Part shown: positions 319-42,685 of the stretch, one piece after another | Layout: each line of letters starts with the position of its first letter | Numbering within the stretch: the stretch's first letter is position 1 | From: Sphaeroforma arctica JP610 | Lineage: Eukaryota | DNA: 46,599 bases | Assembly (NCBI RefSeq): GCF_001186125.1 | Contig: NW_014040512.1 | Span: 116,719 to 163,317, forward strand | Reading direction: 5' to 3' | Position numbers and translations under genes: made by a program | The notes under the pieces: model-generated | Seen by the model: only the letters and a program-made list of their open reading frames with translations | Database searches by the model: none | Told to the model about the DNA's origin: nothing

Positions 319-890
319 CTAGTTGTTTTTACGATCTAATACCGTCTCAATCGGCATTACCTCGACTTTTTTCTTGTTGGGTGCATGTGTTGTACGAGTC
401 TTGAATTTTTGTTCAAACTCCTTAGACTCCTCTAATTTAGCTAAGAACTCGGTTGAGGGTTTCCACTTAGTGGTACCTGCAGGACCGATGCGACAAACGA
501 TGGTGTGTTTCCAAGGTGTCTTCCTAATAGAATAGGATATCTGATACAGGAACGTGTCGGTTTCACGGTCGACATATATAGCCTCGTCTTGTATCATATT
601 AATTAAATCACGTGTCCATGGGTCGGAGCTACGTAAGGAACAACACAGCGTAATGGTAGATTTAGTAATATTAACATAATTTAATAACTGTGCGATAAGT
701 TGCCTAGGTGGGTTAACCCACACATTATGTTTTGATAAGTCAAGTTGAAAGGCATCACCTTTAGGATGAGTCAACGACCTATAATCAGAAACCTGTTTGT
801 TACGTTCTGCGGCGAACATATCAATAGTAAATGGACCTCATCTTGATTGAGCGAGGTTAAACCATTTCTTATTAAGCATCCAATTGGTTG
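319..890 (-). pseudogene. DIRS/Dam-type N6-adenine DNA methyltransferase-like domain of the Gypsy pol
   Basis: Reads WMLNKKWFNLAQSR*GPFTIDMFAAERN...DAFQLDLSKHNVWVNPPRQLI...PW. It is in frame with the RNase H ORF 838..1764 across a single TGA at an expected Trp. Motif I (IDMFA) and motif IV (NPP; AGG is one base from TGG, giving NPPW) are present. Confidence 0.8.
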
Positions 891-2305
891 CTAATAACTC
901 TATAACTGTTTTCTGGTAGTCAGGGACAAGTCGAGAGAGCATGTCAGGAAGATGATTATGTATTCCTGGTATGTGTGTAATGTTAAAAGCGAACTTAGCA
1001 ATAATGTCATGCCAGCGGCTCATCAACTGTGAATCAGGGTTCATGTCCTCTAAATATGTTAAAGACTTTTGATCACAGGCGACAGTGAAGTAACTTCCAT
1101 AGAGATAATCTTTAAACTGTCTTAGCGCAGTAACTATAGCAAGGAGCTCTTGTTTAACGGTAGGGTAATTTCGTTGACTCTTATTATAACTCTTGCTAAA
1201 GAATTGTATGTAGCGCGGTTTACCATTTATCGTTTGGTAAAGCACTCCACCTACCGCTCGATCTGAAGCATCGGTCGCTTCTTGGAATGGGACACCATCC
1301 ACAGGGTACTGCATGATGGGTGCGTCTATTACTTTACTTTTGACTAGCAGCTTTCCCAAAGGTCCTTTGTGCCGCCGTAGGTGACTGAAAGGCTTTAAGC
1401 AATGAGAAAGATGAGGTACCGAATCCGAGAAGAAGTTAACAAACCCACACACAGAGTTCACATCTCTTCCAGTAATCGGTGTTAATAAATCCAACAGAAG
1501 TTGTTTCTTGCCGGGATCAATTTTTACCCCTGCTGCAGATACCTTGTATCCAAGCAAGTGTATAATATCTTTAGCAAAAGAACACTTGTCCTCGTTAATC
1601 TTAAGTTTGGCATGGTTTAGTCGCTTTAAGACTTCCTTAACGAGGTTAGCATGTTCATGTGCTGTCTTTGTAAAGATAACTATATCATATAAATATACAG
1701 ATACATTATCCGACATGACCGCAAATAGTTCCATCATAACTTGTTGGAAGAAGGAAGGTAACATGTGTAAGCCTTCAGGTGCACCTTTAAACTAGTACTT
1801 CTTACCTTGCCAAGTAAAGGAAAAGTATTTCCTATGCGGCTCATATATTTGTAATTGATGGAATGCAGCTTTTTAAGTCTAACTTGGAAAAGATAGTCGC
1901 CCCTTCCATTTTGCGTAGTATCTCGCTTATCTTTGGTAAGGGAAAACTATGTTGCGGCATTAGTTCTTGATTGACGACAGGTCTAGTACTACTCTTGTTT
2001 TACTAAACGTTCCATCAGATTCATATTGATCGACCGCTAAGAGAGCTAAGTTAACTGGGGTTGCATCATAATTGATTTCAATTAGACCCTGCTTTAACCA
2101 ATCTTCAATTTGGGTTTTAACAACGTTTCCGTGTCTCCAACTCACGTAGTGAAGGACACTTCAACTTAGAGAAGTCAACATTTGTTAAGTCAAGCTTAAC
2201 GTACCCGTTAGAGAACTTAAACATACACCAGTCAGTTATTGCAATCTTCCTGTTATGTATAATTAAGTCCATAGTTATATCGGTAAAGTGCGGAATCATA
2301 TCCAT
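838..2305 (-). pseudogene. Gypsy reverse transcriptase and RNase H (frameshifted)
   Basis: Fragments KTRVVLDLSSIKN, AFHQLQI, FTWQGKKY, FKGAPEGL..LPSFFQQVM, YLYDIVIF (degenerate YxDD), LKINEDKC.F, LLGY, followed by RNase H motifs. Confidence 0.88.
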
Positions 2306-2757
2306 TGCTTCACCTTCGGAGGTTTAGGTATCTTTAACATATTATCATCTGACTGATCTTTATTTGGGTCTAACCCTTTTGGCAGATCAGTGAGAGTTGT
2401 ACCTAAACTGAGAAGATCAGTCATACCTATAATTAAATCGTATTTCTGAGACATTTCAGTAACGATTAGGTGAGTATTTACTTCTCTTCTATCTGACAAC
2501 ATTAGGTGTACATAGTCAATGGCTTCTTCGCAAGTGGTAACTTTGCCATTTCCCAAGATTAAATTAGTTGTTTCGTTATGGATAGTCACATCTGTAGCGT
2601 AGGCTACTCGGCGTGAGATAGCAGAGACTTCAGCCCCTGGATCAAAAAGTGCTACAACTTTTTCTCCATTTACATAAACGGTTTGAAATATACGTTCATC
2701 TCCTTTGGTATAGATTTTATTGAACTTTTTCTCATAATCTTGCTCTAGTGCACACAT
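2296..2757 (-). pseudogene. Retroviral-type aspartic protease of the Gypsy element
   Basis: VVALFDPGAEVSAIS (D-T/S-G-like motif) and the C-terminal DLIIGM motif. Confidence 0.82.
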
Positions 2758-2766
2758 ATGGAGCTG

Positions 2767-3840
2767 TCAGTGCTTAACTTGGACGTCCGGTATGTCCTTG
2801 CAATCATTTTTGTGCCAACCGTTAGTACCCTTGCAAGTAGTACAATCTTTCATATAGAGTCCAAAGTTTGGCTTGCCTGGTGCACACTTAACAGAGTCGT
2901 GTTTACCATTCCACTTGCCATCACGTTTAGTGAGGTTGTAACCACACTTCTTGCAAGGTGCTCTCTCCTTCCTTTCACCCTTTGGTTCAGTAGAAGTAGA
3001 GTCTTTACCACCTCCAACAATAGTGCGAGGTTTCTTAGTATTACGCGCAGTGTTATTCTCTATCGCGGTACGCTTAGCGGGCTGGGTAAAGCTCGAGGTA
3101 CTAAGTACTCTAGTAGATGGGTTATTATACTTTTGAACTATCTTCTCAAAGACGGACCAAGGCATAGATCGCAAATCGCCATAGGCGATGATATCATCAT
3201 TGACCTTCTTAAAAAGGTTAGCTCCCAGAGTCTCCATCATCTGACAAATTAATAAATATTCGCCAGTATAGGTACGACCTCCCATCCGAGTGTTCATATG
3301 TGTCCTATGAGCTAGAGCACCTCGAATAGTAGTATCGTTCGCAAAGGACTTGCGAGACTCTAGAAGTTCACGGTCACGTGCATCTTCAAAGAAGGCGTTA
3401 AGTATAATCTCATGCAACTGGCGTCAGGGTAGAGCTTTCCAGTTGGGCTCATGAGCCTTCAAGATAGATTTCCATTCCTCTGACTCACAAAAATGAATAA
3501 AGGCATTCATCATTTGCTTATCATTAAGGCTGGCAGACTCCTTAAGTTGGTCAAGGGCCTTCAGTGTCTCCACTGTACTCTCATTAGTAGAGAAATCGAC
3601 CTCAGCCTTCGCATTACCTAGCTGCTTTATAAAGCTTGGTTCGAAGCGTTCACGAGGCTCACGCTCAGTGCTATGGGCTGCTAGTGCCAAGATGAAGTAC
3701 ATCTCCTTTCTCTTGTTATCGATTAGATAGCGAATGTTATCCGCTTTCTTATCGTTAAGGTCAAAGTCATTCAATAGACGGTCCTCAAGGACTTGCATAC
3801 CAGAACGTAATAGCCTGAGACCATATTGTCTGGTTCTCAC
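2767..3840 (-). pseudogene. Gag-like protein of the Gypsy element
   Basis: Two in-frame ORFs (3424..3840 and 2767..3417) separated by one TGA. The C-terminus has CKKC...HDSVKC and CTTC...HKNDC knuckle-like motifs directly upstream of the protease. Confidence 0.65.
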
Positions 3841-4330
3841 TTCCTCGTCTTCAGAGCTAGAGTGGGTACTCTCTAGTGAGTTACTGATATAACGATTACC
3901 AAAGTCGTGATTACCAGGGTTAGATTATAAATGAGGATCGATGTCATGAGGGTGGTAAGACTCATCGATTTCCACGATCATAGCCTCTGACAGGGTTAGG
4001 TTTGTCGAGAGGATGGTCGATTGTAGTTTCTGAGGTATAGAGATTAAATCTTGAAAAGTTACCCACTTCACCAGCGGTAACTGGCTCGGTGGTAACCCTG
4101 CTGGCTGGTAAACCAGTGGGTCCCAGATTTGAAACCTGGCTCGGAATATTTTTTTCTTCGGTATAAGAAGAATATCGGCCACGTGGGATATGATCAAAGG
4201 GTCAGAAGTGCGGCAGTGGCTAGATCCTTTAAAAGCTCGACTTTGCAGTTCAAATGGCGTCGAGATTGAGAAAATCCAACCACTCGTTGTCGATTTATGG
4301 CGTCCCCAACATTTGCATCTTCCGCCCCAA

Positions 4331-4381
4331 CATTCAGTGGCTAGGCATTCAGTGGCGAGGCATTCAGTGGCGAGGCATTCA
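4331..4381. repeat. 15-bp tandem repeat (CATTCAGTGGC[T/G]AGG x3.4) in the Gypsy 5' leader
   Basis: Directly visible in the sequence. Confidence 0.9.
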
Positions 4382-4392
4382 ATAAAATTTCA

Positions 4393-4410
4393 CGAAATGG
4401 AACGCCACCA
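4393..4410 (-). promoter_or_regulatory. Putative primer-binding site TGGTGGCGTTCC...
   Basis: TGG-initiated motif 4 nt downstream of the putative LTR end ...TTATTAACA on the minus strand. The cognate tRNA was not identified. Confidence 0.55.
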
Positions 4411-4414
4411 TCTT

Positions 4415-4794
4415 TGTTAATAAGTGAATTTGGCTGACTTTTAGTAGTAGTAAACCGTCGATCTCGAGACGGTTCCTTCACTTGTTCAGGAGATATAGCC
4501 TTTCCAATATCTGACTTTTCGCGGTCAGATGGCGAGCTGAGGCCCTGGGCTACACTACTAGGAGACACACGGACGCTGGCGAGCCTTTCCGCGGCAGTTG
4601 AGACCTCCACTTCCGAAGCTTTAGGGTCCGACGAGTCATCCTCAGAGTTTTCCTCAGAACCAAGCTCAGAAACGGCCTCCTCTATAGCTCCAACGGCAGG
4701 CTCAGTACCAGACTGACCAGCGTCCCCAGTAACCTCAGGAATTTCAACAGGCTTAGCAGGCTTAGAGCTGGCTGCTCCCTTGCCTTTACTAAAA
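4415..4794 (-). repeat. Putative 5' LTR (~380 bp) of the Gypsy element
   Basis: Ends in ...TTATTAACA followed by the PBS. Begins TTTTAGTAA, a 7/9 inverted match to that end, exactly where the Ngaro RT homology stops. The second LTR is outside the window. Confidence 0.55.
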
Positions 4795-6650
4795 TCATCA
4801 ACCCAACGTGCAAAGAACAGTTGAGCTTGGCGCAGTACCCAGTCGAAAGTGGAGGCCAAAGTCTCGTATAGTGCGAGAGAGCTTGCCAAACCGAATGGTA
4901 GGCACAATTCAAAATAGTAGAGACCTCGCCATTCGAAGCCTAGGAGTGAAACGTCATGTTTGTGGACTGGCGTGAGCCGGAAGGCTCCTACGATATTTAT
5001 ATCGCTTATAGGCGTGCCGGGTGGATGACTATTTATCCCGTCAATAAAATAACGCAAACTAGTGTATCGGATTATTACATAAGCTATGTGTGAATTAATG
5101 CCTTTCTGCTTGCCCTTTCTTGGTTTATGAGAGGTCGTGGATGCGCCGAAATTTCTCGGACCCACCCGGGCGGATTTTAGCTATTCCGCTTAAATGTAAT
5201 ATGGTATAATAAGGAGAATCTAATTGTGACTTAGTAAAAGATCTTAAAAGCGTAGATTTGTGTATATGTGTTTGTGCGTGCGGCAATCGTTGTAGCCAAT
5301 GTGTGTGCCAGAACAAACATTATGGATGAGCTTTTCTTTTAATATAGTGTTATAACCTAAAAGAGTGGATTCTGGCTTATTGTGATCAGGTACCGACGGA
5401 GGGAGCGTAGACTGAGCTAGAGCCGTAAAATTAAGGTGTATGTATGGTGATTGCTGCGGTATCCCCATCGCGAGTGTGGCGAGGGAGCATTGGATGTGAT
5501 TTTGTACTGTTATGTGTTGCGTTTTGATGGGTGTGGTTGTGGGGCTGATATATCATTCGTGTTTGGATGGGTCGTGCTGGTGCGAGCCGTGTGTGTTTTT
5601 CGACTTGCACATGGAGCGGTTGCAAAGGTGTTTGTATGAACACTTTGTGGCGCAGATTTCGGTCTTGGGGGTGTTGGGCGGCTTGGTCTGCTTCACATTC
5701 TCGCATACACACAAGGACCTGGTAATGTCGCAGTAGTCACAGAAAGTGTGTGTCAGTCTATTTCTGGGTGTGCATAGGAATCGAGCGATAATGTCTGGAT
5801 CGATATTGGCCAGGCGTGTGGTTGCCTCATATCTGTCAAAAACCCCTCTGTGTTCTGGGTCGAGCGCAGCAACGGAACTTGAAGTCATATCGTCTAGGTA
5901 TGTTGTCAGGCAGCACAAGTGAGACAAGTGGTCGTCGATGGCTGTAGAGTCTGTTCTGAATCCGTCGTTGTACATAAAGGAGGCTGCAAACACGGCGGTG
6001 AATGCGCGAATCACGTCTGCGGAGGACGTGAAAGCCTCTTCCTTAGCCTTAATTATCGCGATGCCTGTTTTGTCAATTGTAAGTCCACTAGCTCTCTCCT
6101 GAAGGTGAGCTGGTCGGAAAGTACGCATCATATCGGTGAGGGCGACGGTCTTACAAATCGTAAATTTATTCTTGACCGAGTCAGGCAACGTTGGTAGAAG
6201 GGAGCGAAGAGTGGCATCGGCGTCAAGCTGGGTTCTATCCTTAGTCTGCGAAGACCGAGTTGCAAGTTGCACCTACAGATGTTGATTCTCCTCCTTGGCG
6301 GTAATCCTTGCTTCTTAGTGGCGCTGTTGAGAGGATTCTCTGAATTGCTGAAATTCCTTGTTTGATTCGATTTGCGTCTGGACTAGTCATTGATTGAGGC
6401 TTTAAGAGCGGTTATTGTCTCAAACTCGGAGTCGGAACCCGTATTGTTGTCCATACGATGTTTCTTGTAAGGTGGTTTGTAGGGCTCGTCCACTTTATTG
6501 GTTGTCTCAGAGGCGTCATCTGTAACATTCTGGGTGGTATCAGAGTCGCCCGTAGTGGGATAGTGCCGCTTTGAGAAAGAATCGAAAGTCTGGAATTACA
6601 AATCATGAGACCGTGTTTTTCTGAGTTCGTGTATTCTTATAACATACTTT
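4795..6650 (-). mobile_element. Degenerate Ngaro/DIRS-type (tyrosine-recombinase class) retrotransposon: gag-like ORF1 plus the N-terminal half of RT
   Basis: RT motifs G.HIGY, KFRRIHDLS, AFRL.PV...D..LLGFEWRGLYY.E.CLPFGLASS, WVDDF. ORF1 (5553..6272) ends in a Cys/His-rich C..C.YKH.C...C...H region. RNase H and recombinase are not seen in the window. Confidence 0.8.
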
Positions 6651-7778: not shown

Positions 7779-8371
7779 CGTAGAAATACGGTCGCCAGTC
7801 AGTCTAAACCATCAAAATAAAATGAGATTACACATAGGTTTTTATTTGTATTTGAATAATTTGTTACAAGTTCTTTTTCAAAAATCTCCAAAGTGTTCTA
7901 TATTCACTTTGTTGGCTTCAATAGCCTGAGTATGTGGTATGACTCATTTACCTGGACCTATTTGAGACATTAGTAGATGTAGGACAAACTAAATTTTATA
8001 GTTCTCTGAACTACTACGTATAGATTCTGGTCCTCCCGCCAATCTCCGAGATCCAATAAGTCTTTTTCTTTTTTCTTTTTTCTTCACATGTAACTTTGTT
8101 TATAATAGTTAATGTATTAACGTGACTTACGTACTTAAGTCTATCCACAACTTAGGCATGTGTGTGGTCATGAACATTTATTACTTCTTGTGAATTTTTT
8201 TCAATAAAGAACAGCTAGAGATTGAGGCACTTACCAAGCGACATTCACGATCACTCTCACACAAGTGACCACTGCTAAATTATATCTGACTTAAACTGTA
8301 CCTTGGTTTATTTAACATAGTTTGAAACTTAGTAATATCCATCGAAGTTTACATATCCATAGAAGTTTACA
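7779..8371 (-). mobile_element. Solo LTR (family A, copy 1) with 4-bp target-site duplication TCGC
   Basis: Reverse complement of 20197-20705 plus 21966-22042. Termini TGTAAAC...TCTAC(G/A). TCGC at 7775-7778 and 8372-8375. Confidence 0.75.
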
Positions 8372-8700: not shown

Positions 8701-10565
8701 TAGAGACGGATATTCTCACATTACCCGATGGTAGATAAAGTCTCCTTCCATATAGGATCGTGATTAGTAAATATAGCAGGCGCGTCGTTCCCAATGGCAC
8801 TTCTGACTGAGTTCACTTATTTCAGACGTAACACTCTTTACTAAGCGATACTTTTTTTAACCATATTTTTAAAGTGACGGAACTACTGTATTCATTACAT
8901 TACGTTCTTTACAGGTTGAACTAGCTTAATTAATTAATTGGTATTTTTTGTCACCACGATGAATGAATTTACTATATGAGCTAGAAAGCCTGTGTTTGAT
9001 TGTTAAAACGAATTTATCGGCAATCGCCATCGCATATCGATGAAGAGGCGACATATTTGTTCTCTGATTCGATACCGAATGAAGAAACCAAGGCAGAGGT
9101 TCATGCTACGCTAGACCATTTGTATCTGAGACTCAACAATCAATTTCTACGTTGGATAAGGCCATACAACATATAAAAGGGATTATCAAGCGGAGCGACA
9201 ACCTAGGACTGCTGACACATGTGCAAAAGCTATGGAGGTTATTCTGCTATTTCGGTTGCTAATTCAAAAATGTCGGGAATTCTTAATAGAATGGGTTGAC
9301 ACGCTTAAGGCAATGGCACAGTCTGAACGGATGCGGACTATGCGATTGACAGGGGTTCATGAAATCTTTTTCAAAGGCCAACCGAAATCTATGAGTTCCG
9401 GAGGCTTTCAAATATCTATATTTGAATACTTCAGTAGCGAGATAATTCAACGGAAAAGAGGTTTATGGAGACTATTAGTGTTGCCACGATTGTCCTCCGA
9501 GTAGTCAACCAGATTGCCACTCTGCCAGTCTGATGAGGGCAAGCCGGTGATTCTTGATACGTAGATAGTTATTGGTTAAAACAATAACGAAAGACATCAT
9601 TAGTATTTTTTATATATTTACTTTCTACCTTTTTTTTCTTGAAGATAAGTACTCACACAACAAAACAATAATCGTAGGTTCGACAGAACGATTCTGAAAG
9701 CATAAATTAGAAACCTTCGATAAAATCAGTACTGAGAGGATTGTATATGGGCAATGTCTCAGTCTTTAATTCCCCTCGATTACTGTTGATATCACGAGGC
9801 AAGCCTAACTTGTTTCACTTTTATACTACATAGATTAAAAGACTCAACTACATTACAGCTTTAACGGCATTAAAAATGTCTCGTTACACTGACTTTTACA
9901 CTTTAAGAGCAGGCGACTAATAGGCAGTGGTATATGTAGTTTACAAAAGAGAGCTATAAGTGCACTTAAAAAATAGCTTACCAAACCAGCGCATGTACGG
10001 ACAAGCGACGATTGAACGCTGTCGAACGCCATTGACATTCATAGACTATGCTTCACGACAACCATACACTGCGGGCATTAGCTCTGAACTACGAAGCATG
10101 CAAACTGACAATACATGCGGATCTTAATCGGTATATACAATATCAGATTCTTATGTTTGCACAGAAGGGGAGCTTGTAGATTTAAACAGAATCCATGGGA
10201 CATTATAGAAGAAAAGAAAAATTAAGGCCTAAAATTTGGGTAAGCATATACACGTACGCAAAGTTCCAAACCTTTTTTACACTATATTCTGAATGCTTGA
10301 AAACCTTTCCTATACTTTACATAACCAAATAAAGAGTGATATAATATGTCTCTGTTACAGGTGATACTGGCGCAATCGTTATCAAGAGAAAAATTGTAAG
10401 AGTCCTAAAGGTATTAGTACCTGTGCGGCGCCCCCGCAGTATCCTGAGGTAAATGATCGAGAAGAGATGCATGAATCGCGTGCGATTTGAATTTATCTAC
10501 GATTAAAGACGCCCCGGGTCATTTTTGATATTTAAATACACTTTTAGGGTCCCCTAATTGAGCTG

Positions 10566-11181
10566 ACAAGACTTGCTCTTCGTGTAAAATCCAGGGCATT
10601 CTAACATTCAGATATACATGCATATATGTATTGTAAACTTCAGAGTATGCATTCTAAGTTCTACTATATCGAGTAAACATATGGCAATTGAAGTCAGTTA
10701 GTATTTAGCCTTTGTAGCATGTGTAAAAGTGATTGTAAATATTAGCTGACCAGGCTGACTATACCGTATACTTATCATTAATAGTTTGATATAGTACGCC
10801 AACAGCTCGATCTGAAGCGTCGGTTGTTATTTGGAATGGAACACCGTCTACGGGGTATTGCATTTCTTTACTCACAAGACTTGCTCTTCTAGTAAAATCC
10901 AGGGCATTCTAACATTCAGATATACATACATGTATGTATTGTAAACTTCAGAGTATACATTCTAAGTTCTACTATATCGAGTAAACATATGGCAATTGAA
11001 GTCAGTTAGTATTTAGCCTTTGTAGCATGTGTAAGAGTGATTGTAAATATTGGCTGACCAGGTTGACTATACCGTATGCGTACCATTAATAGTTTGATAT
11101 AGTACGCCAACAGCTCGATCTGAAGCGTCGGTTACTATTTGGAATGGAACACCGTCTACTGGGTATTCCATTTCTTTACTC
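10566..11181. repeat. 308-bp tandem duplication containing a Gypsy RNase H fragment
   Basis: Units 10566-10873 and 10874-11181. Each encodes (minus strand) YPVDGVPFQI.TDASDRAVGVLYQTIN, nearly identical to the RNase H at ~1230-1315. Confidence 0.9.
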
Positions 11182-11499
11182 ACTCGCCTGCGTTTGGCTG
11201 TATGGAGATTAGACCTTTCAGTGTGTTTTTGTGTACAAGCTGACTTTTCTATAGTAAAAAGATCAGTGTGGCGTTTCGAATTGATGTAAAGCAATCTCAC
11301 CGGTATCTCTCACAAAGTCTAACTTTCATAGTTTAATTTGCTCTTTTACAGATTTCGTTACATCTGTCCCAGACGGTGATGACCATTCAACATCACGTAA
11401 ACAGACGGTCAATTTGCCAGTGATATATGACACAGAAACCTGTGCCAGCATAATTATATCTGATAATTGATTTAAAGCCTTCGCCATATTTCATTTTCA

Positions 11500-14400
11500 C
11501 CACGGACCTTTTGACAAAAATTTGGTCTGTGAAACGCCTTTCCAGTTGCCCCGAATGCACCAGTGTGGAATTGAAGACGATAATCTGAGAAATTTACTGA
11601 CCCCTCTGATCGAGTCTCCTGCACGAAACCAAAATCCGAGAAAACACCTCCAATTTTATTTTCTGAAGCTTCCAGTTTGCTCGGCAAAAAGTCGGTGCAG
11701 AATGCATCAGCCCCTACCAATGTGCCTGGCACACAATTCCCTCACACAAAGACTGGGCTATTATGCTTAAGTCGATCGCGGACCTTCACGACCAAATTAA
11801 ACCCCTACAAGAAAAAAATCTTAGACCTTGAAACCCTCCCCATTATAACCCCGAGCGACAACCACAGTAACGCAATTCAATTTGATGTGAGCTCACCCGA
11901 GCAACCAACAAATGATGCCACTGTGATCACTGCACCGGCAAACCGTTTGCGCACCAATGAGCCACGTAACATTGAAGTCGCCAGCCACCGCTCCACAGTA
12001 GCTAATTCGACAAAGCCGTCCTCCGAAACACGACCAACCCCTCCAGTACCAAAAGTAACAGCCCGCCCGGCAGTTTCTGAAGCACTCATGTTGCAAATGA
12101 TGGGTTGCCAGATCCCTGAAAAAGCTCTAGACGGATTACTGGATACAACTCCTGTCTGGCTCTTCTTCAAAGCAGTATTTCCAATTGGCAAGCCTCGCCC
12201 ACGTTCTACCTTCAAACAAGTGTGGCGTTCTCACCATATATAAATCGTCCCCATATTTTTCTGGTATATGCCATCGAACCCAATTTCCGAACGCAACCGG
12301 CGGGGCCGAGCAACCAGCATCATCCGAATATGTAATTTCGGCTGAGGTCAAAGCCAGTTTGATACGAATTGCGAATGATTCTTTGGATTGTCAACCCCCG
12401 CTACAGTAAGTACCCATATTCAACCAAAGCAGCAATCATACATTTTCTATCTACTACCGAACCCTTTGACGAAATCAGTAGATATCAAGATCCTCAAATC
12501 TATGACCGAGTAAGAGAATATTTCAATGGACGCGTGGCAAAGCCGCAACCCAGGACTCCACCCGCATCCAAACTACCCAATCAGCGGTTTCCCTACTCTT
12601 GGAGAAGGCAGATCAGCTGGAAGCACGTGAAGGACGACATGGAAATCAACAATGCAGAAACAGTTATCAGCTTGACAGAAGACGAACAATGCTAGGACTT
12701 ATGCGGATGACGCTTCTTAAACCACGAGGTCTTAACATGAATAATCCGACCAGGTCATAAAGGTATTTGAACGTTATATCGATTTTGGTTCAGGTTGATG
12801 TTATGTGTGTGGTTGAAACCTGACACAATGTGACTTTACTAAATCATGTATGTTCTTCCACGAAGCATCATATCTTACATCATACTGCACAACACAACCC
12901 CCTACATCTCTCACACTGTGATATTCAAGTTCTATCTCATCCATTCATCACATATGCAGATGTTCGGATGCATGTATTCTACCTCCCACTTTACTCACTA
13001 ACGGTGGCAGAATTCAAACACTGCATGAATCCTCCTGAGACCGGCACCTTTCAATCAGATGTTGTATGGGGCGATCAGTATTCTACCTCCCACTTCACTC
13101 ACTAACAGAGCCAGAAGTTAAACACTACATGAATCCTCCTGAGAACGGCACCTTTGAATCAGATGTCGTTTGGGGTGATTTAAATTTCAAAGCTAGACAG
13201 TACGGTCACGCATCCACGATCCATAGACTCCGCAGAAAGACGGTAGTGGCCAATATTCTCATTGCCTGGCGTCTACAGTACTCTCATACGGGAGGCCTAC
13301 CGATACAGCGCAGTCACGTTATCTACGACAACCAGTAGAAATCTTCAGATAGTCACAAATAAACTAGTAAAACCTCAATCACCGCCCCACCACCAGAGTC
13401 TTCTATCCCACGGCTACAACCGGTATCGCCACCGGTTGCATCATTTACACGATAAGGCCTGCACTCTGTTGTTTCAGGCTCAGATATGGAAGCACCAACA
13501 TCTATTATGATCATACCTGGCAATACATGGGCCGTCAGACGGATTGAATCGTATACTAGATCGAATTTGGGCTACACAGCAAACCCCGCCATTTTTGGAG
13601 GCTACTAATACGATACTGATAAACCGTGGGTACAACGACTGCCGAATCCCACGGTCCGCCCGTGACCGGTTGCCCGGCACAACATCCGTATGTATAAATA
13701 TATCGCACATCAACGTTGATCACCGTGTCAACCTTGTATACCGGGTGTCCAGGATTCGGGTGCTGCAATACGGATTACTACCAAGATCTCTCTTATCACG
13801 CCAACGCTAACAGGCTCCCCAAATGCGAATACTCTCAACAGACACCTACTTATCTCTCCCATGCCCATGGCGGTGGAACTCTCTGGCATTTATCCGCAGC
13901 CTTCCAAATAACTGCAGATTCAACTGTCCCACGACATACCGGGTATCGACTTTGTACAACACATGGACCACCTCGTGGCAGCATTACTCCAGGCTATAGT
14001 GTCCTTCCGTGCGTATAGATTTTATGGATTCAGCTGGCGCCATCCGTGAAATCGATTGGCAATATTCACGACATTCATTCTTTCAACGGCCACCTATGGT
14101 CTGATCATCATTGCAGGGGCTCCACCTATATGCCGCGTTGAAGTCGCTGTATAAGCGGTACAACTCAGCACTAATCCAAGCAGTAGCCATCGTATCAGTC
14201 ACTGCATTCCCGAAATTCCCATATCACCGCATACGGTTCTTCGTTTGCTTTTTCGCTGCTGTTGTTTACTTCCAACACGCCAATTTATGGAGTACCTTGG
14301 TGGATGCCTGGGACTACATCTTGACTCGATCAATAATGCAAAACCATTAACCCAATTTACAAAACCCGCTTGGACAGGTAACAGATCACCGGACAAATTC

Positions 14401-15100
14401 CTGTTCAGTATTTACGTTTGTTTAGAATCGAGGGGCGGGAGTACACCTAACAACAGAGAACACTGTATGTTCTGCGAGCAGATTCACAACACGACGCTTC
14501 ACAACTAAGAAAATGGCCGAGAAAGCTCGCCGCCAATATTCCTACCGACTTATAAAGAATGTGCTTCGCATCACTGACCCAGATAAGCCGTCCCATGAAA
14601 GCCTTACTCATTGCCGTGAACACACCCCAATCCGCCTTTGTGCCATGATAGCAACCAACACGTTCCAATACAAATTGCTTGGCTAACATACTGGTAGATA
14701 CTTCTGTCTCAGTGTGCCCCGGATATGAGACTTTCACTTTCAGCCACTTTGCTTGTATCAGCAGCTTGATATGGCGTATTCTGGTGGGCCCTAATCTACC
14801 ACCAATTAGACCATACTTACTACAACAGCTACAAAATCGGCACGACTAACACGACATATGGGCTCTCCACAAACATCTCGGGAGCTTCCGAGATTACCAC
14901 TACGAGTGTGGGCCAGCTTTAATCCACACAATGGCACACGAGTTTTATCTCCCATCCAAATGGCGGAAGTGTACTGTATCCATCGTCACGAAGCAACGCG
15001 TCGTATGTCCTCAATCGTTGCATCACTCGCCCCGAGTTTCTCGCGGCAGTTCGACAATCCTAACATCCTTCAATATTCCATGAACCTCTCCAACGAATAT
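11500..15100 (+). mobile_element. Degenerate APE-type non-LTR retrotransposon (LINE), copy 1
   Basis: ORF1-like remnants 11522-12695. Endonuclease motifs MTLL.PRGLN, VDVMCVVET*H, VVWGDLNFK. The 3' region (14770-15070) is homologous to 22430-23000. The RT core was not recognised. Boundaries are approximate. Confidence 0.68.
12974..13181. repeat. 104-bp tandem duplication inside the LINE endonuclease
   Basis: GTATTCTACCTCCCACT...GGGG[C/T]GAT at 12974 and 13078. Confidence 0.88.
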
Positions 15101-15983: not shown

Positions 15984-16350
15984 CCATGAAGCACCTGTCT
16001 ATCTGATTAAATAGTATCCGGAGTAGGTGGTGTGAACCTGGTAGCGCTAGGTTGCACGGCACCAAAAATGTACGTCGGATGGAGTTGAATGGCTACTCGT
16101 GCAGAGCTTTAAGTTCGAACAACTGAGGCCGTTGGTTTGTGTGCAGTGCTTCCGCGCTTTGTTTCCCATGAAGCACCTGTCTATCTGATTAAATAGTATC
16201 CGGAGTAGGTGGTGTGAACCTGGTAGCGCTAGGTTGCACGGCACCAAAAATGTACGTCGGATGGAGTTGAATGGCTACTCGTGCAGAGCTTTAAGTTCGA
16301 ACAACTGAGGCCGTTGGTTTGTGTGCAGTGCTTCCGCCGCGCTCTGTTTC
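15984..16350. repeat. 182-bp near-perfect tandem duplication
   Basis: CCATGAAGCACCTGTC... at 15984 and 16166. Confidence 0.92.
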
Positions 16351-16689
16351 CTGAAATTATCAATAGACTCTGGCCTATGCGGTTCCTATCCGCCCGCTGC
16401 TTTGTGTGCACAAAATCTTGTAGAGATAGTTGCCCGCCTGATTATCGTTTTAAGATCTTATACCTAGTGTCCTACAACACGACGCTGTTTGGTCCTGAAC
16501 CCGAAAATATATATTGTCTTCCCCATGACGACTGAAAAGCTTGACGTTGGAGGAATTGTACCTATTTCTGTGCGTACTTTTGCAAATCGGTAAAGCTCTA
16601 TCTCCCATGTCTACGTTCCTGACGTGAACGTGATTAGGTTACTGCCGACCGCGTCTCTCGTTGTGTGGAACGAGACTTTCTCTGAGTCA

Positions 16690-16855: not shown

Positions 16856-18164
16856 CCCTACGCTCAGCAAGTGTGGCCCTTCCTTAAGTACACTCATAGC
16901 TGACACTCTCCTGCTGCCTCCGACATACCGTAGAAGTAATGCCGTGTTGTATGGATTTTCGTGTTACTATTAATCATTGCAGGCTTAATATACACACTGT
17001 CTTTGCCTCGGTTGTGTCGGTATATTTGTCTACCTCGCATCTCCATTGTCTATTTCACGCGGTATAGCTCCTGCTCATGTGCTGTCAAACAGCACACTCT
17101 ACCCCAACAGCTGTCATATTCGCTTGTTGTAGCGATTTTCGTTTGTCACTACCGCTAACAACTTCTGAAATGTAGAAATAGCAGACTACCTATCTACCAT
17201 ATAAATTGCTATAATACGTACAAACTATACACTAACTACACCAATCCGTATTCATTTGTACTACTCTTCATATTCATGTACAGTTCTCTATTGAGACACG
17301 CATTCTTTACTCTACTTACACATAGCACATACAACTATTTATACTAACGATCTGTATTTTTGTTTTGTTTATGTACAACTTAATACTATATCTTTTGTTC
17401 AGCAAACAGCGATAATTGTTACAGACCACTTCTTACTTTCTTGTATTGTTTCATATCATGTCTTATGCGCATGTGTATGCTTCTAATACATTATACTCTT
17501 CTGCCATGGGTTTAGGATTTTCCCACGCCTGTTACATTTCAATTTACTTACCGTTCGTGTGACCACTTACCTTTTTTTAATAGATCGTCTTCTGTTGGCG
17601 TTAGCGGTATTTTCGTCAACATCTGTTCTCGTTTCATATTCAGGTGTTCGGTTATCTTTTGACGTATTCAGCTTCTTATAGACTCCTCCATATCCACTAT
17701 ATTCATTCTCATTTGCCGTGGAAATCCTCTATTTAAGTATCATACATTGGTTTAATCGCTGCCAACCATTTCTGGCAATATATCTATTGCGAAGTCGTCC
17801 ATATCGTTGATACACGCTCCTCTATGTTCTTTATTGCTTTATGTGCAACATCTTCTTCGCTACTAAAATCCGACAGCAGTGCTGGCATATTTGCCTTGCC
17901 ATTCCATTACCGACTCCGCTATCTTTGTTGGTCCAACTCTCCCTCGTTTGCTCCATGTGTATTTGATGGTCCAGAAAGGGTTAATGGTGGTTTTGCCCAA
18001 TCTCTTGCTAGTCTTGTTAATAAATTACCATTAAATAGTACTTCATGCGACAATTTTATCCATTTCTCACGTTATTCCATATCTATACTTGTATATAGTC
18101 TTTACAATAATCAGTTCGTTACAACTACTACAATTTTATTAAAAATGTGGGGTTATGGTTACAA

Positions 18165-18238
18165 TCTCTGTTAACTCAGTTGGTTAGAGTGCGGACCTAA
18201 TAAGTCCGAAGTCACCAGGTCGAGCCTGGTACGGAGAA
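18165..18238 (+). tRNA. tRNA-Ile (anticodon AAT), atypical
   Basis: Acceptor stem TCTCTGT/ACGGAGA; D stem ACTC/GAGT; anticodon stem CGGAC/GTCCG with loop CTAATAA (AAT at 18199-18201); T stem ACCAG/CTGGT; discriminator A; T6 run at 18244-18249 as a Pol III terminator. Confidence 0.88.
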
Positions 18239-18865
18239 TACTATTTTTTCCACCCTTATGGTGGAACATGTAATTCATGTTTTTAGGAGATACTGTAGAA
18301 TTTTAAATGAAATTGCTATGTAATTGCGCATAGTGGTGGAACTGAGAATTTGCAGTAGATTCTGTCGTCATGGATTGTATCTAAGATCAAGATGACGCTC
18401 TTCAACCAACAAGGACTCAACATGGACAACGCAGCACATACTGATAAGTGTTTGAACGTGGTATCGATTTTGAGTCAGATTGATGTTATGTATGTGGTTG
18501 AAACCTGACATAACATCACATCTCTTATTGATATATTCTCGAACGCACACTATCATATTCTACATCACACAACACGGCATAATATCTGACACCTTTCACA
18601 CTGTGGTATTGGCACCTTTTCCAAACAGCACCCATCAAAATTTCAATTTGTACACTCCTCACCGTACGCGGTGTTCTTTATATGCTTTGGCGTTCACACG
18701 ACCGTGTCCTACCTGCCACTCAAGCCACTTACCAAAGAAGACGTCAGGCGATACATGAATCCCCCCCCGAGATTGGCAATTTTCAACCAGACGTTTTTTG
18801 GGGGGACTTCAACTTCAAAGCCTGTAAGTATGGCCACGCATCTGGAGGTCGAACAAACCAAAATC

Positions 18866-19514
18866 TTGTAACTGTACCGTGTGCTGGTCAACCATCTGTA
18901 CGCCGAAGTGGTGTGCGACACTGTCTCCGTGACACCCAAAACCATTGACGAGTTCCGCCGCCTCGTGATGGCGGATCTGCTGCCTATGATGCCGTCTATG
19001 ACAAACGCGTATGTCGTCTGGCCCGAGCTTTACACGTGCCTGGTCGACGCGGCCCGTGTTACGGTATCCGTTATGGACATGGAATTGACCCAAACCGCCG
19101 AGCTCGTAGACGCCAAGTATAATAGACCTCGCAAGCTTTACGGTGGACCAGAAGAGACGATATATTTCCGTCGCGAGGTGCGAAAATCGAGTTTTAGAAA
19201 GTTTGGATCAGACTGGTCCGTGTCCGTCTCGCGCGCCGGCGATTTCTTCCTGTACAGTTGGTTGGATATAACACTACCCTCAGGTAAGCTTAACAACAAC
19301 GACCCCAACAAGCGCCTGCATTGGACACACAAAGTGGGTCTAAACATGCTCAAGCACGTTTCTCTAACCTTTAACAACATATGCGCGTTCAGCTTTGACA
19401 AAATTTCGATGGACTTCTGGACCAATTTCACGACCCCCACGTCGCACCCACGTTGGTAACAACAATGACATTGGTAATGTCAACGCGCTGATCCAACCGC
19501 ACCGTGCCGGCGAT
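18866..19514 (+). other. Endogenous viral element (649-bp insert) flanked by AAATC direct repeats
   Basis: AAATC at 18861-18865 and 19515-19519. Removing the insert restores the LINE frame NQN-HRL, which aligns with copy 1 (GHAS..HRL...W.L.Y). Confidence 0.82.
19079..19514 (+). pseudogene. MCP: N-terminal fragment of an NCLDV double-jelly-roll major capsid protein, iridovirus/marseillevirus-like
   Basis: IDLASF (alternative frame, 19122-19139), LYGGPEETIYFRREVRKSS, FGSDWSVSVSRAGDFFLYSWLDITLP, LHWTHKVGLNMLKHVSLTFN, FDKISMDFWTNFTTP, then after a frameshift NDIGNVNALIQP. These are colinear with iridovirid MCP motifs recalled from memory (IDIATF, YGG..A..YFVRE.RKS, FGQEWSV.ISRAGDYL, W..N..HN, FN, FD...LDFW..FT.P, MIGN...LI.P). 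Confidence 0.9.
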
Positions 19515-20196
19515 AAATCACAGACTACATATGAACACAATCGAGGCTACCATGTGTAGAACGTGGCACTTGGACTATCTCTATGCTGATGGCTCAACTG
19601 GTACAGAACATGCGTATCACCGGCTTACCACCCCCGCCCCCCTCCAGACCTATAAGCTAACGCACTAGTATCTATGGTGACCACACCTTTGTACTCGATC
19701 TCCAGGTACTTCTAACGGAACAAATCCTTCGGCCCCAACAAATGCCACCGATGCCGCCGCCTTCGGACCAACGCACCTCCCCTCTCATGGATATAACCAA
19801 TACCAATATCGACTTTATCACCTACGCAACGAATCCCGCGCACAACTATTCCAAGCTAAAATATCCGGGCGCATCAGAACCTACTACGGTTGTATCTCAC
19901 CTTGCACGGTCCAGTTAAAGGGCTGATACGGATCCTCGACCGCATCTGGCGCTATGAACGGCTGCCAAACCACTCGTTTCGCCCACGTCTGACCGCCCAA
20001 AGCAATACTCAATCGGTCAAAGATATTGCGTATCAATGACGGTCTCCGCACCAACCATACATACCGGGTGCCTATGACACATGCGCCACTATCACTGGCT
20101 ACTTTGAGGACCTATCTAACTCTAAAAACCCTACGTTGCTCCACCGGATGCCGAATCCTTGCCAGATGTAACTTCCGCCATACGCCCCGACGATGT

Positions 20197-22042
20197 TGTA
20201 AACTTCGATGGATATTTCTATGTTTTAAACTATATTATATAAACTAAGATACAATTTAAGTCAGCTAGGATTTAGCAGTGGTAGCTTGCGTAAAAATGGT
20301 CGGGACTGCCTCTTGGTAAGAGCCTTAATATACTCGATCACACAGGACGTACCTCTAACTGTTCTTTATTGAATAAATTTCATTACAAGTACTAAGTGTT
20401 CATGACCACATGTCTAATTTGTAGATAGACATACGAACGTAAGTCAAGTTATTACTTTAGCTAATATAAATAAAGTTCCATCTGAAGAAAAGTTAAAAAA
20501 AGAAGAAGACTTATTGGATTTTGGAGATTGGCGGGAAGACCAAAACCTGTAAGTAGTAGTTCAGAGATTATAAAATTAGTTTATAATACCCTACATCTAC
20601 TATTGTCTCAAATAGGTCCAAGTAAATGAGTTATACCAAATACTCAGGCTATTGGAGCCATCAAAGTGAATTTAGAACACTTTGGAAATATTGGAAAAAC
20701 TTGTATTTTTTTTTTTTGAATACTGTAAAAGTCGGTCTTCTCTAGGCTGACTATACGATACCAAGACGTTTACGTTAATAATACAATACGTTAATACGTT
20801 TAAATGCAAAATGTTAAATAAGTTTAGCTTCAGCCCTTGGTAATGAGCAAAAGATTAGGGGATTTTACACTGAGACTATTGTCTATATGCTCCGCTCTAA
20901 TCACTCACTACTTCAGTCTAGATTTCTTTATGTTTTAGTTACTAAGACTAGATATCATTTCACTGGACACATGGTTTACATTTCACGCCTCGAAACAATT
21001 ACCTAATCAAACCAACCAATAAAATACCTCTAAGTCCAACTTAAGGAAATAAAAAGAAAATCAAAACACCAAGCTGGTGCAGTATACATCTGCACCTAAA
21101 CCCCATCACTTGGTACCTAGCTCCCCATCCCATTTAAGGCATAGACGGGCATATCTAGTTGGCTGGCTAGAAGGAATCAAAACCATGTTGTCCTAAATTC
21201 TAACAACTTTGATCCTGTCCTTTTCTCAGTGGATTATCTTGCTCTGAGATCATTATCGAATTATACCATAGGTTTGTATCAACAACCATTTCATGCCTGA
21301 GACCATCTCTCATGGTACTCCCATTAATTAAAGATTCCCAAAGTGTCATTTTCAGGTGTCAGATTGGTGTCGTTCCTATATTATGTACAATTCTAATTTC
21401 AGTGGAAAAGCCAATCTATATTTGGAAAACCACCTAATTGTCCACAAGCCCTCGAGTGGTGAATGTCAGGGACATCCTACACCTTCGGTTTCCCCCCGGG
21501 ATTATATCCGGGGGCCCGTCCCGTCCCTTCGGGGACGTGGAGGAGTCCTCCTACATGCCCGTTCGCTCGCTCGCTCTCAAAGAGGGCTCGCCCTCGAGTG
21601 GTGGAGAGCGGGTAGTAGCCTTCCTACACTCTCTACAAGAGTGGTGGATGTCAGGGACATCCTACGCCTTCGGTTCCTCCCCGGGATAAGGGAGGCGTCC
21701 CTTCAGGGTTGTGACCCTCCCCCGGGGTACTCGAGGGCTTGCCCTCTCGAGTGTAGGAGGACTCACCCACTACTCGGAAGAGCGTGTAGACCAGGAGGGT
21801 GTAGAGTCCCATACTATACTGAGTATTGTCACATGTTCAGAATCTTGAATTTCTCAGTTCTTGTTCATGTCCAATTCATTAAACGTATTATATTTACACG
21901 TTTACACGTTTAAGCGTGTATAATATACGCTAACTGTGCAACTACTATTAGGAACCCACTATTTTTTCAATACAAATAAAAACCAATGTGTTATCTCATT
22001 TGATCTTGATATTTGTGACTGACCGGAGACCGTATTTCTACA
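20197..22042 (+). mobile_element. Solo LTR (family A, copy 2), split by a ~1.25-kb secondary insertion
   Basis: TGTAAACTTC... at 20197 and ...GTATTTCTACA at 22042. Flanks ATGT/CTGT (3/4 match). Homology to copy 1 breaks at ~20705 and resumes at ~21966. Confidence 0.72.
20705..21965. mobile_element. Unclassified insertion within the solo LTR; includes a GC-rich block with a ~45-bp direct repeat (21454-21500, 21639-21685)
   Basis: Absent from LTR copy 1. Begins with a poly-T tract and is bounded by TATTTTTT on both sides. No recognisable protein. Confidence 0.5.
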
Positions 22043-42010: not shown

Positions 42011-42129
42011 GTCATGATGTCGGCGTCTCGCCGAATATATATATAAAGCAGCCGCTCTCTCTTTATCTGTGGCGAAAGAAAGGGCCGCCCATAGGTTAGA
42101 AGCTGTATGGTGGATTTCATACAGGTATA

Positions 42130-42325
42130 TTAACTATCAGACATCTTACAGGTAAAACAATCATCAGATATCATACAAATATATCAATTGTCAGACATCA
42201 CACAAATACAATTGTCAGACATCACACAAATATATCAATTGTCAGACATCACACATATATCAATTATCAGACATCACACAAATATATCAATCGTCAGGTA
42301 TCATACCGGTATATCAATTATCAGC
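42130..42325. repeat. ~24-28-bp minisatellite (ATCAATTGTCAGACATCACACAAATAT)
   Basis: About seven diverged units. Confidence 0.85.
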
Positions 42326-42685
42326 TGGAGTTTCGGGGTTCGGGCTATATTTTTGAGTAAACAAACGTCTGGGGACGCTTCCGCGATGTAACTTGTAGGT
42401 AAAAGTAGATGGTCCAAAAACGTGTTGCATGCTATTGCTAGCTGGAATTAATGAAAGAGGTATGAGTGGACAGCAGGAGAATAGTATATCAGGACAAAGC
42501 ATGTATTGCTACAAGGATAGGTTTACCTTGTACACACAAATACATATAGCCCGCGCGCATGTTCAACTGTGGATAGGCTCAACACTTATGGATATAATGC
42601 TCGTCTGAGTACACACGGACATGTAACCCAAATCTCGTTTATTTAAATTCAGGCTTTTCTATTTATAGTTCTTTATCTATACGCA

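What the first reader, a model, noticed from the sequence alone, without database searches (positions are those of the whole stretch)
18861..19519. The viral DNA is a clean 649-bp insert with a 5-bp AAATC duplication inside a LINE endonuclease
Seen: AAATC flanks both ends. Excision restores GHASGGRTNQN-HRLHMNTIEATMCRTWHLDYLY, which aligns with the uninterrupted LINE copy at ~13205-13290 (GHASTIHRLRRKTVVANILIAWRLQY). The insert has no TIRs, TG..CA ends or poly-A. Inference: viral DNA was captured at a staggered break or by microhomology repair after the LINE integrated. Alternatively it was captured in a LINE lineage that then spread it. Either way, both junctions can be read at base resolution.
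Basis: partly seen in the sequence, partly recalled or inferred. Interest (0 to 1): 0.75.

Follow-up and report, generated by a model that had tools for sequence, protein, structure and literature searches.

The report
Giant-virus capsid scrap inside retrotransposon
A roughly 670-base decayed piece of a giant-virus capsid gene region sits in one copy of a repeated retrotransposon-like element in the marine protist Sphaeroforma arctica, likely patched into a DNA break; it is real but of an ordinary kind, and the "5-base duplication" is not a true target-site duplication.

Summary
Public sequencing contigs carry it with no differences in 8 of 8 runs laid; one contig bridges both junctions in 5 of 8. 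Only one contig lies on the insert per run, so the LINE did not spread it. Other copies of the same repeat leave the window at 18843 and rejoin at 19515 with two letters between; none of 6 listed joined forms holds 18844-18860. So the foreign DNA is 18844-19512/19514 (669-671 bp), the left AAATC lies 17 nt inside it, and excising 654 bp leaves 15 extra bases. AAATC is therefore not a clean target-site duplication. The insert holds the 3' part of an unknown ORF and the 5' third of a decayed iridovirus-like major capsid gene (PF16903; annotated SARC_01201). Host: Sphaeroforma arctica, where Iridoviridae/Marseilleviridae-like inserts were reported in 2017. Best explanation: near-blunt capture of virus-derived DNA at a double-strand break (0.68). 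A reverse-transcriptase jump onto viral RNA is not excluded (0.10). New member of a known kind.

The parts
18391..18843 (+). Left part of a decayed high-copy repeat copy, LINE-like endonuclease region (motifs VVET 18494, GDFN 18802)
   Evidence: High summed depth and loose ends at 18391 and 18843; 72% and 70% matches to 12706-12925 and 13083-13214; motifs
18844..19512 (+). Foreign, virus-derived insert, 669 bp (671 bp if 19513-19514 are counted); GC 0.52
   Evidence: Absent from all listed empty-site forms; one contig per run; composition
18844..18860 (+).
   Evidence: tables 5c and 7
18861..18865 (+). Left AAATC, inside the insert; not a target-site copy
18845..19093 (+). Coding-like stretch of unknown origin, probably the 3' part of a viral gene upstream of the capsid gene (GC3 0.73, one stop at 18869-18871); no homologue found
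   Evidence: frames; no relatives
19101..19514 (+). 5' third of a decayed NCLDV double-jelly-roll major capsid gene; stop at 19107-19109, frame break near 19135, 14-codon gap near 19196, frame break near 19440-19455; cut off at the right junction
   Evidence: PF16903; PDB 6ojn E 8e-15; tblastn/tblastx to relatives reach 19511-19514; gap
19513..19514 (+). Two ambiguous letters (AT) where empty copies read AC: either LINE with one substitution (no loss) or viral (2-bp loss)
   Evidence: table 5c
19515..19519 (+). Right AAATC, the LINE's own sequence
   Evidence: Present in empty-site contigs
19513..20196 (+). Right part of the host repeat copy (motif GDHT 19676)
   Evidence: tblastx to 13222-13770
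20197..20705 (.). A different, very high-copy repeat that interrupts or ends the host copy; 79% alike to 7865-8353 on the other strand
22140..22973 (+). Further piece of the same repeat family, possibly the continuation of the host copy
   Evidence: tblastx to 14486-15043
12706..15043 (+). Second, more distant copy of the repeat family without the insert (empty-site control)

Best explanation
A 669-671-bp piece of DNA from an iridovirus-like giant virus lies in one copy of a high-copy LINE-like repeat of Sphaeroforma arctica with 0-2 host bases lost and no target-site duplication, and was likely ligated into a double-strand break by end-joining repair, as mitochondrial fragments (numts) are. 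Shown: both junctions, the empty-site form of the repeat, one contig per run on the insert, capsid homology up to the right junction, decay of the capsid gene. Inferred: that the break was repaired by end joining; that the donor was viral DNA in an infected cell (or an older genomic viral insert no longer detectable at 80% likeness); that the 5' part is the viral gene next to the capsid gene; that capture came early in the life of this repeat copy and the piece has decayed neutrally since. The repeat copy was a bystander target and did not move the insert.
For: Empty copies join 18843 to 19515 through AC, including the high-depth form in X18 (61.7 against 2-5 for unique contigs). In-window copy agrees. 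One contig with 0 differences on the insert in 8 of 8 runs, 7 studies. Capsid homology runs to 19511-19514 and stops in mid-gene; no terminal repeats or poly-A at either end. No other NCLDV-like match in the rest of the window against 158 viral loci. 11 of 34 highly conserved capsid columns differ in the insert (138 relatives: median 0, maximum 7), with stops and frame breaks. In primates 54% of numt integrations lost no bases, 65% of fusion points were blunt-type and 24% of integrations had a duplication (PMC2567098, abstract and section 8). S. arctica is reported to carry small Iridoviridae/Marseilleviridae-like islands (PMC5294986).
Against: The donor is unknown (best relative 48% amino-acid identity), so microhomology and filler bases cannot be excluded. 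No orthologous empty site was seen; all runs look like one strain, so the empty state is read from paralogues about 11-12% diverged (35 differences over 18560-18843, 33 over 19561-19856). The insert looks about as decayed as the repeat copy itself (32% of conserved columns, matching about 12-15% neutral change if all is decay), and both viral frames are in the sense of the LINE, which a co-insertion would also give. AAATC so near the left end has only about a 2-3% chance if taken as an exact, pre-chosen word.
Confidence: 0.68

Rival explanations
1. The left AAATC is not chance: 18844-18865 is filler made during repair, partly templated on the right-hand LINE end (as in polymerase-theta-type joining, recalled), or a 649-bp insert with a 5-bp duplication plus a separate 15-17-nt insertion.
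For: 18853-18865 is A/C-rich and resembles the LINE's ACAAATC; exact AAATC in a 22-nt window has about 3% chance; a stop at 18869-18871 follows it.
Against: No template of 9 nt or more for 18844-18870 within 17800-20600 on either strand (longest 8 nt, far away); the segment reads without a stop in the same frame as the downstream coding-like stretch; some shared 5-mer near both ends has a 25% chance; it needs two events at one site.
Confidence: 0.15
2. The LINE reverse transcriptase jumped from its own RNA to a viral RNA and back during insertion, so the chimera was made in one retrotransposition event.
For: Both viral frames are in LINE sense; insert and host copy look similarly decayed; no host bases need be lost. 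Template jumping by non-LTR reverse transcriptases is known (PMC8857657, search listing only).
Against: Needs two jumps with return to within 0-2 nt; the insert has no poly-A and spans what look like two genes; sense orientation is a coin toss; the decay estimate is an upper bound because the donor may itself be divergent; no reverse-transcriptase domain was detected in the window's copies.
Confidence: 0.1
3. The viral piece was captured in a LINE lineage that then spread it.
For: None found.
Against: Depth over the insert equals that of one contig in each of 8 runs laid at 80% likeness, while flanks draw many contigs.
Confidence: 0.03
4. Assembly chimera or contamination with a free virus.
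For: X14 and X17 show no cover at 18868-18955.
Against: Left junction bridged in 6 of 8 and right in 7 of 8 runs with 0 differences, years 2009-2025; the capsid gene is broken.
Confidence: 0.01

Closest known systems
Endogenous NCLDV fragments of the Iridoviridae/Marseilleviridae cluster in Sphaeroforma arctica and S. sirkka (Gallot-Lavallee and Blanc 2017, PMC5294986)
   Same: Same host species, same viral neighbourhood; small islands amid eukaryotic DNA.
   Different: Their table, as text, gives DNA polymerase and ATPase for S. arctica with the MCP cell blank (a symbol may have been lost in the text; Figures S1 and S5 could not be seen). No junctions are described in the sections read. This piece is under 0.7 kb, less than two genes.
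Numts captured by non-homologous end joining (Hazkani-Covo and Covo 2008, PMC2567098)
   Same: Foreign DNA fragment, arbitrary ends, little or no loss of target bases, no element-type ends.
Giant endogenous viral elements of Amoebidium appalachense (Sarre et al. 2024, PMC11244446) and Acanthamoeba (PMC12210455)
   Same: NCLDV DNA in a protist genome, decaying, associated with mobile elements.
   Different: Those are large multi-gene, methylated regions that mobile elements colonise; here a sub-gene fragment sits inside the mobile element, in a host reported to lack 5mC, where ViralRecall gave no reliable hit.
Iridovirus major capsid protein (PDB 6ojn; PF16903 Capsid_N)
   Same: N-terminal jelly-roll region, E 8e-15 to 6ojn.
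   Different: Closest relatives are unnamed metagenomic proteins at 39-48% identity; family placement unresolved in the tree.

Membership tests
Endogenous NCLDV (Nucleocytoviricota) element | NCLDV hallmark gene homology | tested here: met
   PF16903 35.8 bits, cut-off 24; 100 proteins at E<=0.001, 98 of them other than the window's own product and one repeat-protein match
Endogenous NCLDV (Nucleocytoviricota) element | Physical linkage to host DNA | tested here: met
   Contigs bridge left junction in 6 of 8 and right in 7 of 8 runs; host genes SARC_01201/SARC_01204 on one contig of 191 kb
Giant endogenous viral element / provirus | Many viral genes over tens of kb, near-complete genome | tested here: not met
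   669-671 bp; no other match in the window against 158 viral loci or in Pfam scans of 48 ORFs
Iridoviridae (as donor family) | MCP groups inside Iridoviridae with support | tested here: inconclusive
   Best PDB match is an iridovirus MCP (identity of 6ojn as Singapore grouper iridovirus is recalled), but the insert is a long unsupported branch in a 39-row tree with a single named iridovirus
Insertion with target-site duplication (staggered break) | Direct repeat whose left copy abuts host sequence, empty site holds it once and excision restores the empty site | tested here: not met
   Left AAATC is 17 nt from the last host base; excision leaves 15 extra nt against 5 of 6 empty forms and 12 against the sixth
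End-joining (numt-like) capture | Little or no loss of target, no element ends | tested here: met
   0-2 bp lost; no terminal repeats or poly-A
End-joining (numt-like) capture | Microhomology or filler pattern against the donor | not testable with these tools
   No close donor found
LINE with APE-type endonuclease (host element) | Endonuclease motifs in order in one frame | tested here: inconclusive
   VVET, GDFN, GDHT in order; the 2-nt differences read in other copies at 18761 and 19666/19667 put them in one frame; motif meaning is recalled; Pfam and PDB searches of the broken frames gave no endonuclease hit
LINE with APE-type endonuclease (host element) | Reverse transcriptase downstream | tested here: inconclusive
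   No RVT hit in 15 read-through frames of the decayed copies; no intact copy available
TE-captured cargo spread by transposition | Insert present in several copies at different loci | tested here: not met
   One contig on the insert per run at 80% likeness in 8 of 8 runs

The most novel reading that the evidence does not exclude
A LINE reverse transcriptase jumped onto a giant-virus transcript and back in mid-element, fixing an mRNA-derived piece of a DNA virus with no loss of LINE sequence: an RNA route for giant-virus endogenisation, from an undescribed iridovirus-like virus of ichthyosporeans.
Probability: 0.1. Interest if true: 0.65.

Novelty: new member of a known kind. Interest (0 to 1): 0.3.

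Why it matters
It is one more fossil showing that an undescribed iridovirus-like virus entered Sphaeroforma cells. Because it landed in a high-copy repeat, the many empty copies stand in for the pre-insertion site, so the junction can be read to within 2 bp; this supports passive break-repair capture, not a viral integrase or transposon transport. I found no paper describing this locus's junctions (searches). The capsid homology itself is already in public annotation (SARC_01201), and the mechanism is a well-known one, so the gain is modest. It is also a caution: an in-frame excision between two short repeats looked like a target-site duplication and was not.

Tried and rejected
Whole-genome search: no genome held; replaced by contigs of public runs. 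Word-index homologue search with the whole ORF among longer proteins: 0 of 464 candidates. Close relatives in viral contigs and metagenomes: 0 of 15 and 0 of 176 pattern matches. Homologue of the 5' 240 bp: none among 100 HMMER hits or 158 loci (best E 0.41); the protein-atlas tool did not complete, so that part is unassigned. Local template for 18844-18870: none of 9 nt or more. Pfam/PDB proof of the endonuclease or RT: none. Tree placement: unresolved, 8 of 36 inner branches well supported (39 rows chosen from the hits, not all). Naming of top relatives: of 20 proteins looked up, one is the window's own and one is a named iridovirus cluster; the others are unnamed or 'hypothetical'; none of 120 listed has an informative name. 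Expression: no RNA holder listed; X12 and X15 are only guessed to be RNA and say nothing. Missing cover at 18868-18955 in X14 and X17 and at 19220-19483 in X18: holes, not used as evidence. Orthologous empty site: not seen in 8 runs. Earlier scan findings: none in 3 look-ups. bioRxiv 10.1101/2025.04.19.649669: no mention of Sphaeroforma in main text (supplements closed).

Full report
Observation. AAATC stands at 18861-18865 and 19515-19519 (and once more at 19184), with 649 bp between the outer two. The DNA between is viral: the frame 18872-19459 matches Pfam Capsid_N (PF16903, E 8e-9) and a major capsid protein in the PDB (6ojn, E 8e-15).

Host. The C1-SH2 protein at 31792-33099 is 100% identical to SARC_01204 of Sphaeroforma arctica JP610, and the insert's ORF is the start of SARC_01201, already named 'Major capsid protein N-terminal domain-containing protein' in UniRef. 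That gene model continues with residues from the LINE-like flank (compare) and is probably an automatic-annotation chimera (inference). S. arctica is an ichthyosporean, a unicellular relative of animals.

The junctions are real. No genome was held, so I laid contigs of 8 of the 24 listed public runs (7 studies) at 80% likeness. One contig with 0 differences spans about 18737-19620 in X1, X2, X3, X12 and X15; X18 bridges the left junction only and X14 and X17 the right only. So left 6 of 8, right 7 of 8. Depth across the insert equals the depth of that one contig in every run and is like that of other unique contigs, while flanks draw many contigs. The tool warns that depth is not copy number, but no second contig at 80% likeness was laid on the insert. 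Zero differences suggest one strain throughout, so these runs confirm the sequence, not its spread in the species. No orthologous empty site appeared.

Other copies of the repeat stop matching at 18843 in all 8 runs (loose ends in 7, a joint in X18). In X3, X15 and X18 contigs run from 18843 to 19515 with only AC between; in X18 this is the high-depth form (61.7 against 2-5). Six distinct joined forms are listed over the site (table 5c; 3 rows were not shown): five have exactly this length, one is 3 nt longer, none holds 18844-18860. The in-window copy agrees: it aligns up to 18842 and its best register on the right has the LINE resuming at 19513 (30 of 60 matches; at most 20 in the 40 other registers). 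So the foreign DNA is 18844-19512 (669 bp, no host loss, one substitution at 19514) or 18844-19514 (671 bp, 2 bp lost). A target-site duplication must abut host sequence on both sides, so this is not one. As to chance: the exact word falls in 18 of 587 interior 22-nt windows (3.1%); some shared 5-mer between 25-nt stretches arises in 25% of 20,000 draws (one search gave 5.6% before the word itself was excluded). A templated filler is therefore not excluded, but no local template of 9 nt or more was found, and the segment reads without a stop in the frame of the coding-like stretch behind it, up to a stop at 18869.

Anatomy of the insert. The 5' 240 bp looks coding on the + strand (GC3 0.73, one stop) but has no relative among the 100 HMMER hits from 1.84 billion representatives, in viral or metagenome scans or in 158 loci around related capsid genes. 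The capsid gene begins near 19101, where the N-terminal motif of relatives has its best score among 93,116 positions of the window (9.8 bits; next 7.7), in another frame than the main match 19130-19444; a third frame carries homology from 19437 to 19511-19514, so viral homology reaches the right junction and the gene is cut after about a third. It is broken by a stop at 19107, two frame breaks and a 14-codon gap near 19196. Closest relatives are unnamed metagenomic proteins at up to 48% identity; a 39-row tree leaves the insert on a long unsupported branch. 'Iridovirus-like' is thus a best-match statement, not a family assignment.

Host element. Endonuclease-like motifs VVET (18494), GDFN (18802) and GDHT (19676) occur in order (their meaning is recalled), and the 2-nt differences read in other copies at 18761 and 19666/19667 place them in one frame. 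Pfam and PDB gave no hit on the broken frames and no reverse transcriptase was detected, so 'LINE' is likely, not proven. The copy runs 18391-20196, is followed by another repeat (20197-20705) and may resume at 22140-22973. It differs from other copies by about 11-12%.

Age. At 34 capsid columns conserved in at least 95% of 138 relatives the insert differs at 11 (relatives: median 0, maximum 7); neutral change of 12-15% would alter 24-30% of residues. If most of this is decay, the insert is about as old as the repeat copy. This is an upper bound, as the donor may be divergent.

Mechanism. Most likely (0.68) a fragment of virus-derived DNA was ligated into a double-strand break with 0-2 bp lost, like numts: in primates 54% of integrations lost nothing and 24% showed duplications (PMC2567098; abstract and section 8 read). 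Rivals: filler or duplication plus a second small insertion (0.15); reverse-transcriptase jump onto viral RNA and back (0.10; favoured by sense orientation and similar age, disfavoured by the exact return, lack of poly-A and two-gene span); spread by the LINE (0.03); artefact (0.01).

What is known. Gallot-Lavallee and Blanc 2017 (PMC5294986; passages, sections 3.2 and 3.3 and Table 1 read) report Iridoviridae/Marseilleviridae-cluster genes in S. arctica and S. sirkka, in small islands. In the text form of the table the MCP cell for S. arctica is blank, but the 'unknown clade' symbol is lost in that text and Figures S1 and S5 were not visible, so they may have counted this gene. Sarre et al. 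2024 (PMC11244446; passages) report that S. arctica lacks 5mC and gave no reliable ViralRecall hit. The Acanthamoeba study (PMC12210455; passages) describes mobile elements colonising viral regions, the reverse nesting. I found no description of this locus's junctions in four searches (listings only except where noted).

Verdict. A real, single, decayed NCLDV capsid-region fragment in a protist repeat; junctions corrected to 18843/18844 and 19512-19514; no target-site duplication, no spread. New member of a known kind; interest 0.3.

Noticed in passing
window 18976: In X14 and X17 (two studies) the insert contig begins at exactly 18976 and 18868-18955 has no cover; six other runs cover it. Unexplained; may be a filter effect.
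   Followed up: no
window 18968-19950 (SARC_01201): The public gene model joins the viral frame to LINE-derived sequence into a 264-aa protein; probably an annotation artefact, expression untested.
   Followed up: partly
window 319-6272, minus strand: Retrotransposon remnants with RT, RNase H, a weak Dam methyltransferase match and an aspartyl protease; the RT-RNaseH-Dam order recalls DIRS-type elements (recalled); further pieces at 10772-11171.
   Followed up: no
window 23977-24525 and 26023-26337: Exons matching prokaryotic-type cytochrome b561 (PF01292, E 1.7e-13 and 0.022); possible bacterial-type gene in the protist.
   Followed up: no
window 31789-33099, minus strand: Long exon encoding a C1 plus SH2 protein (SARC_01204) with no other relative at E<=0.001 among 7998 scored candidates.
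   Followed up: partly
window 20197-20705 and 7865-8353: Very high-copy repeat in opposite orientations, 79% alike, with many junctions at 20197; likely a short non-autonomous element.
   Followed up: no
window 12974-13179, 10563-11183, 15984-16351: Tandem duplications of 102, about 310 and about 182 bp (88-98% alike), the first inside the second LINE-like copy; some may be assembly duplications.
   Followed up: no
window 27155-27816, 42100-42334, 42960-43588, 44988-45191: Minisatellite arrays with units of about 38, 27, 45/82 and 6-12 bp.
   Followed up: no
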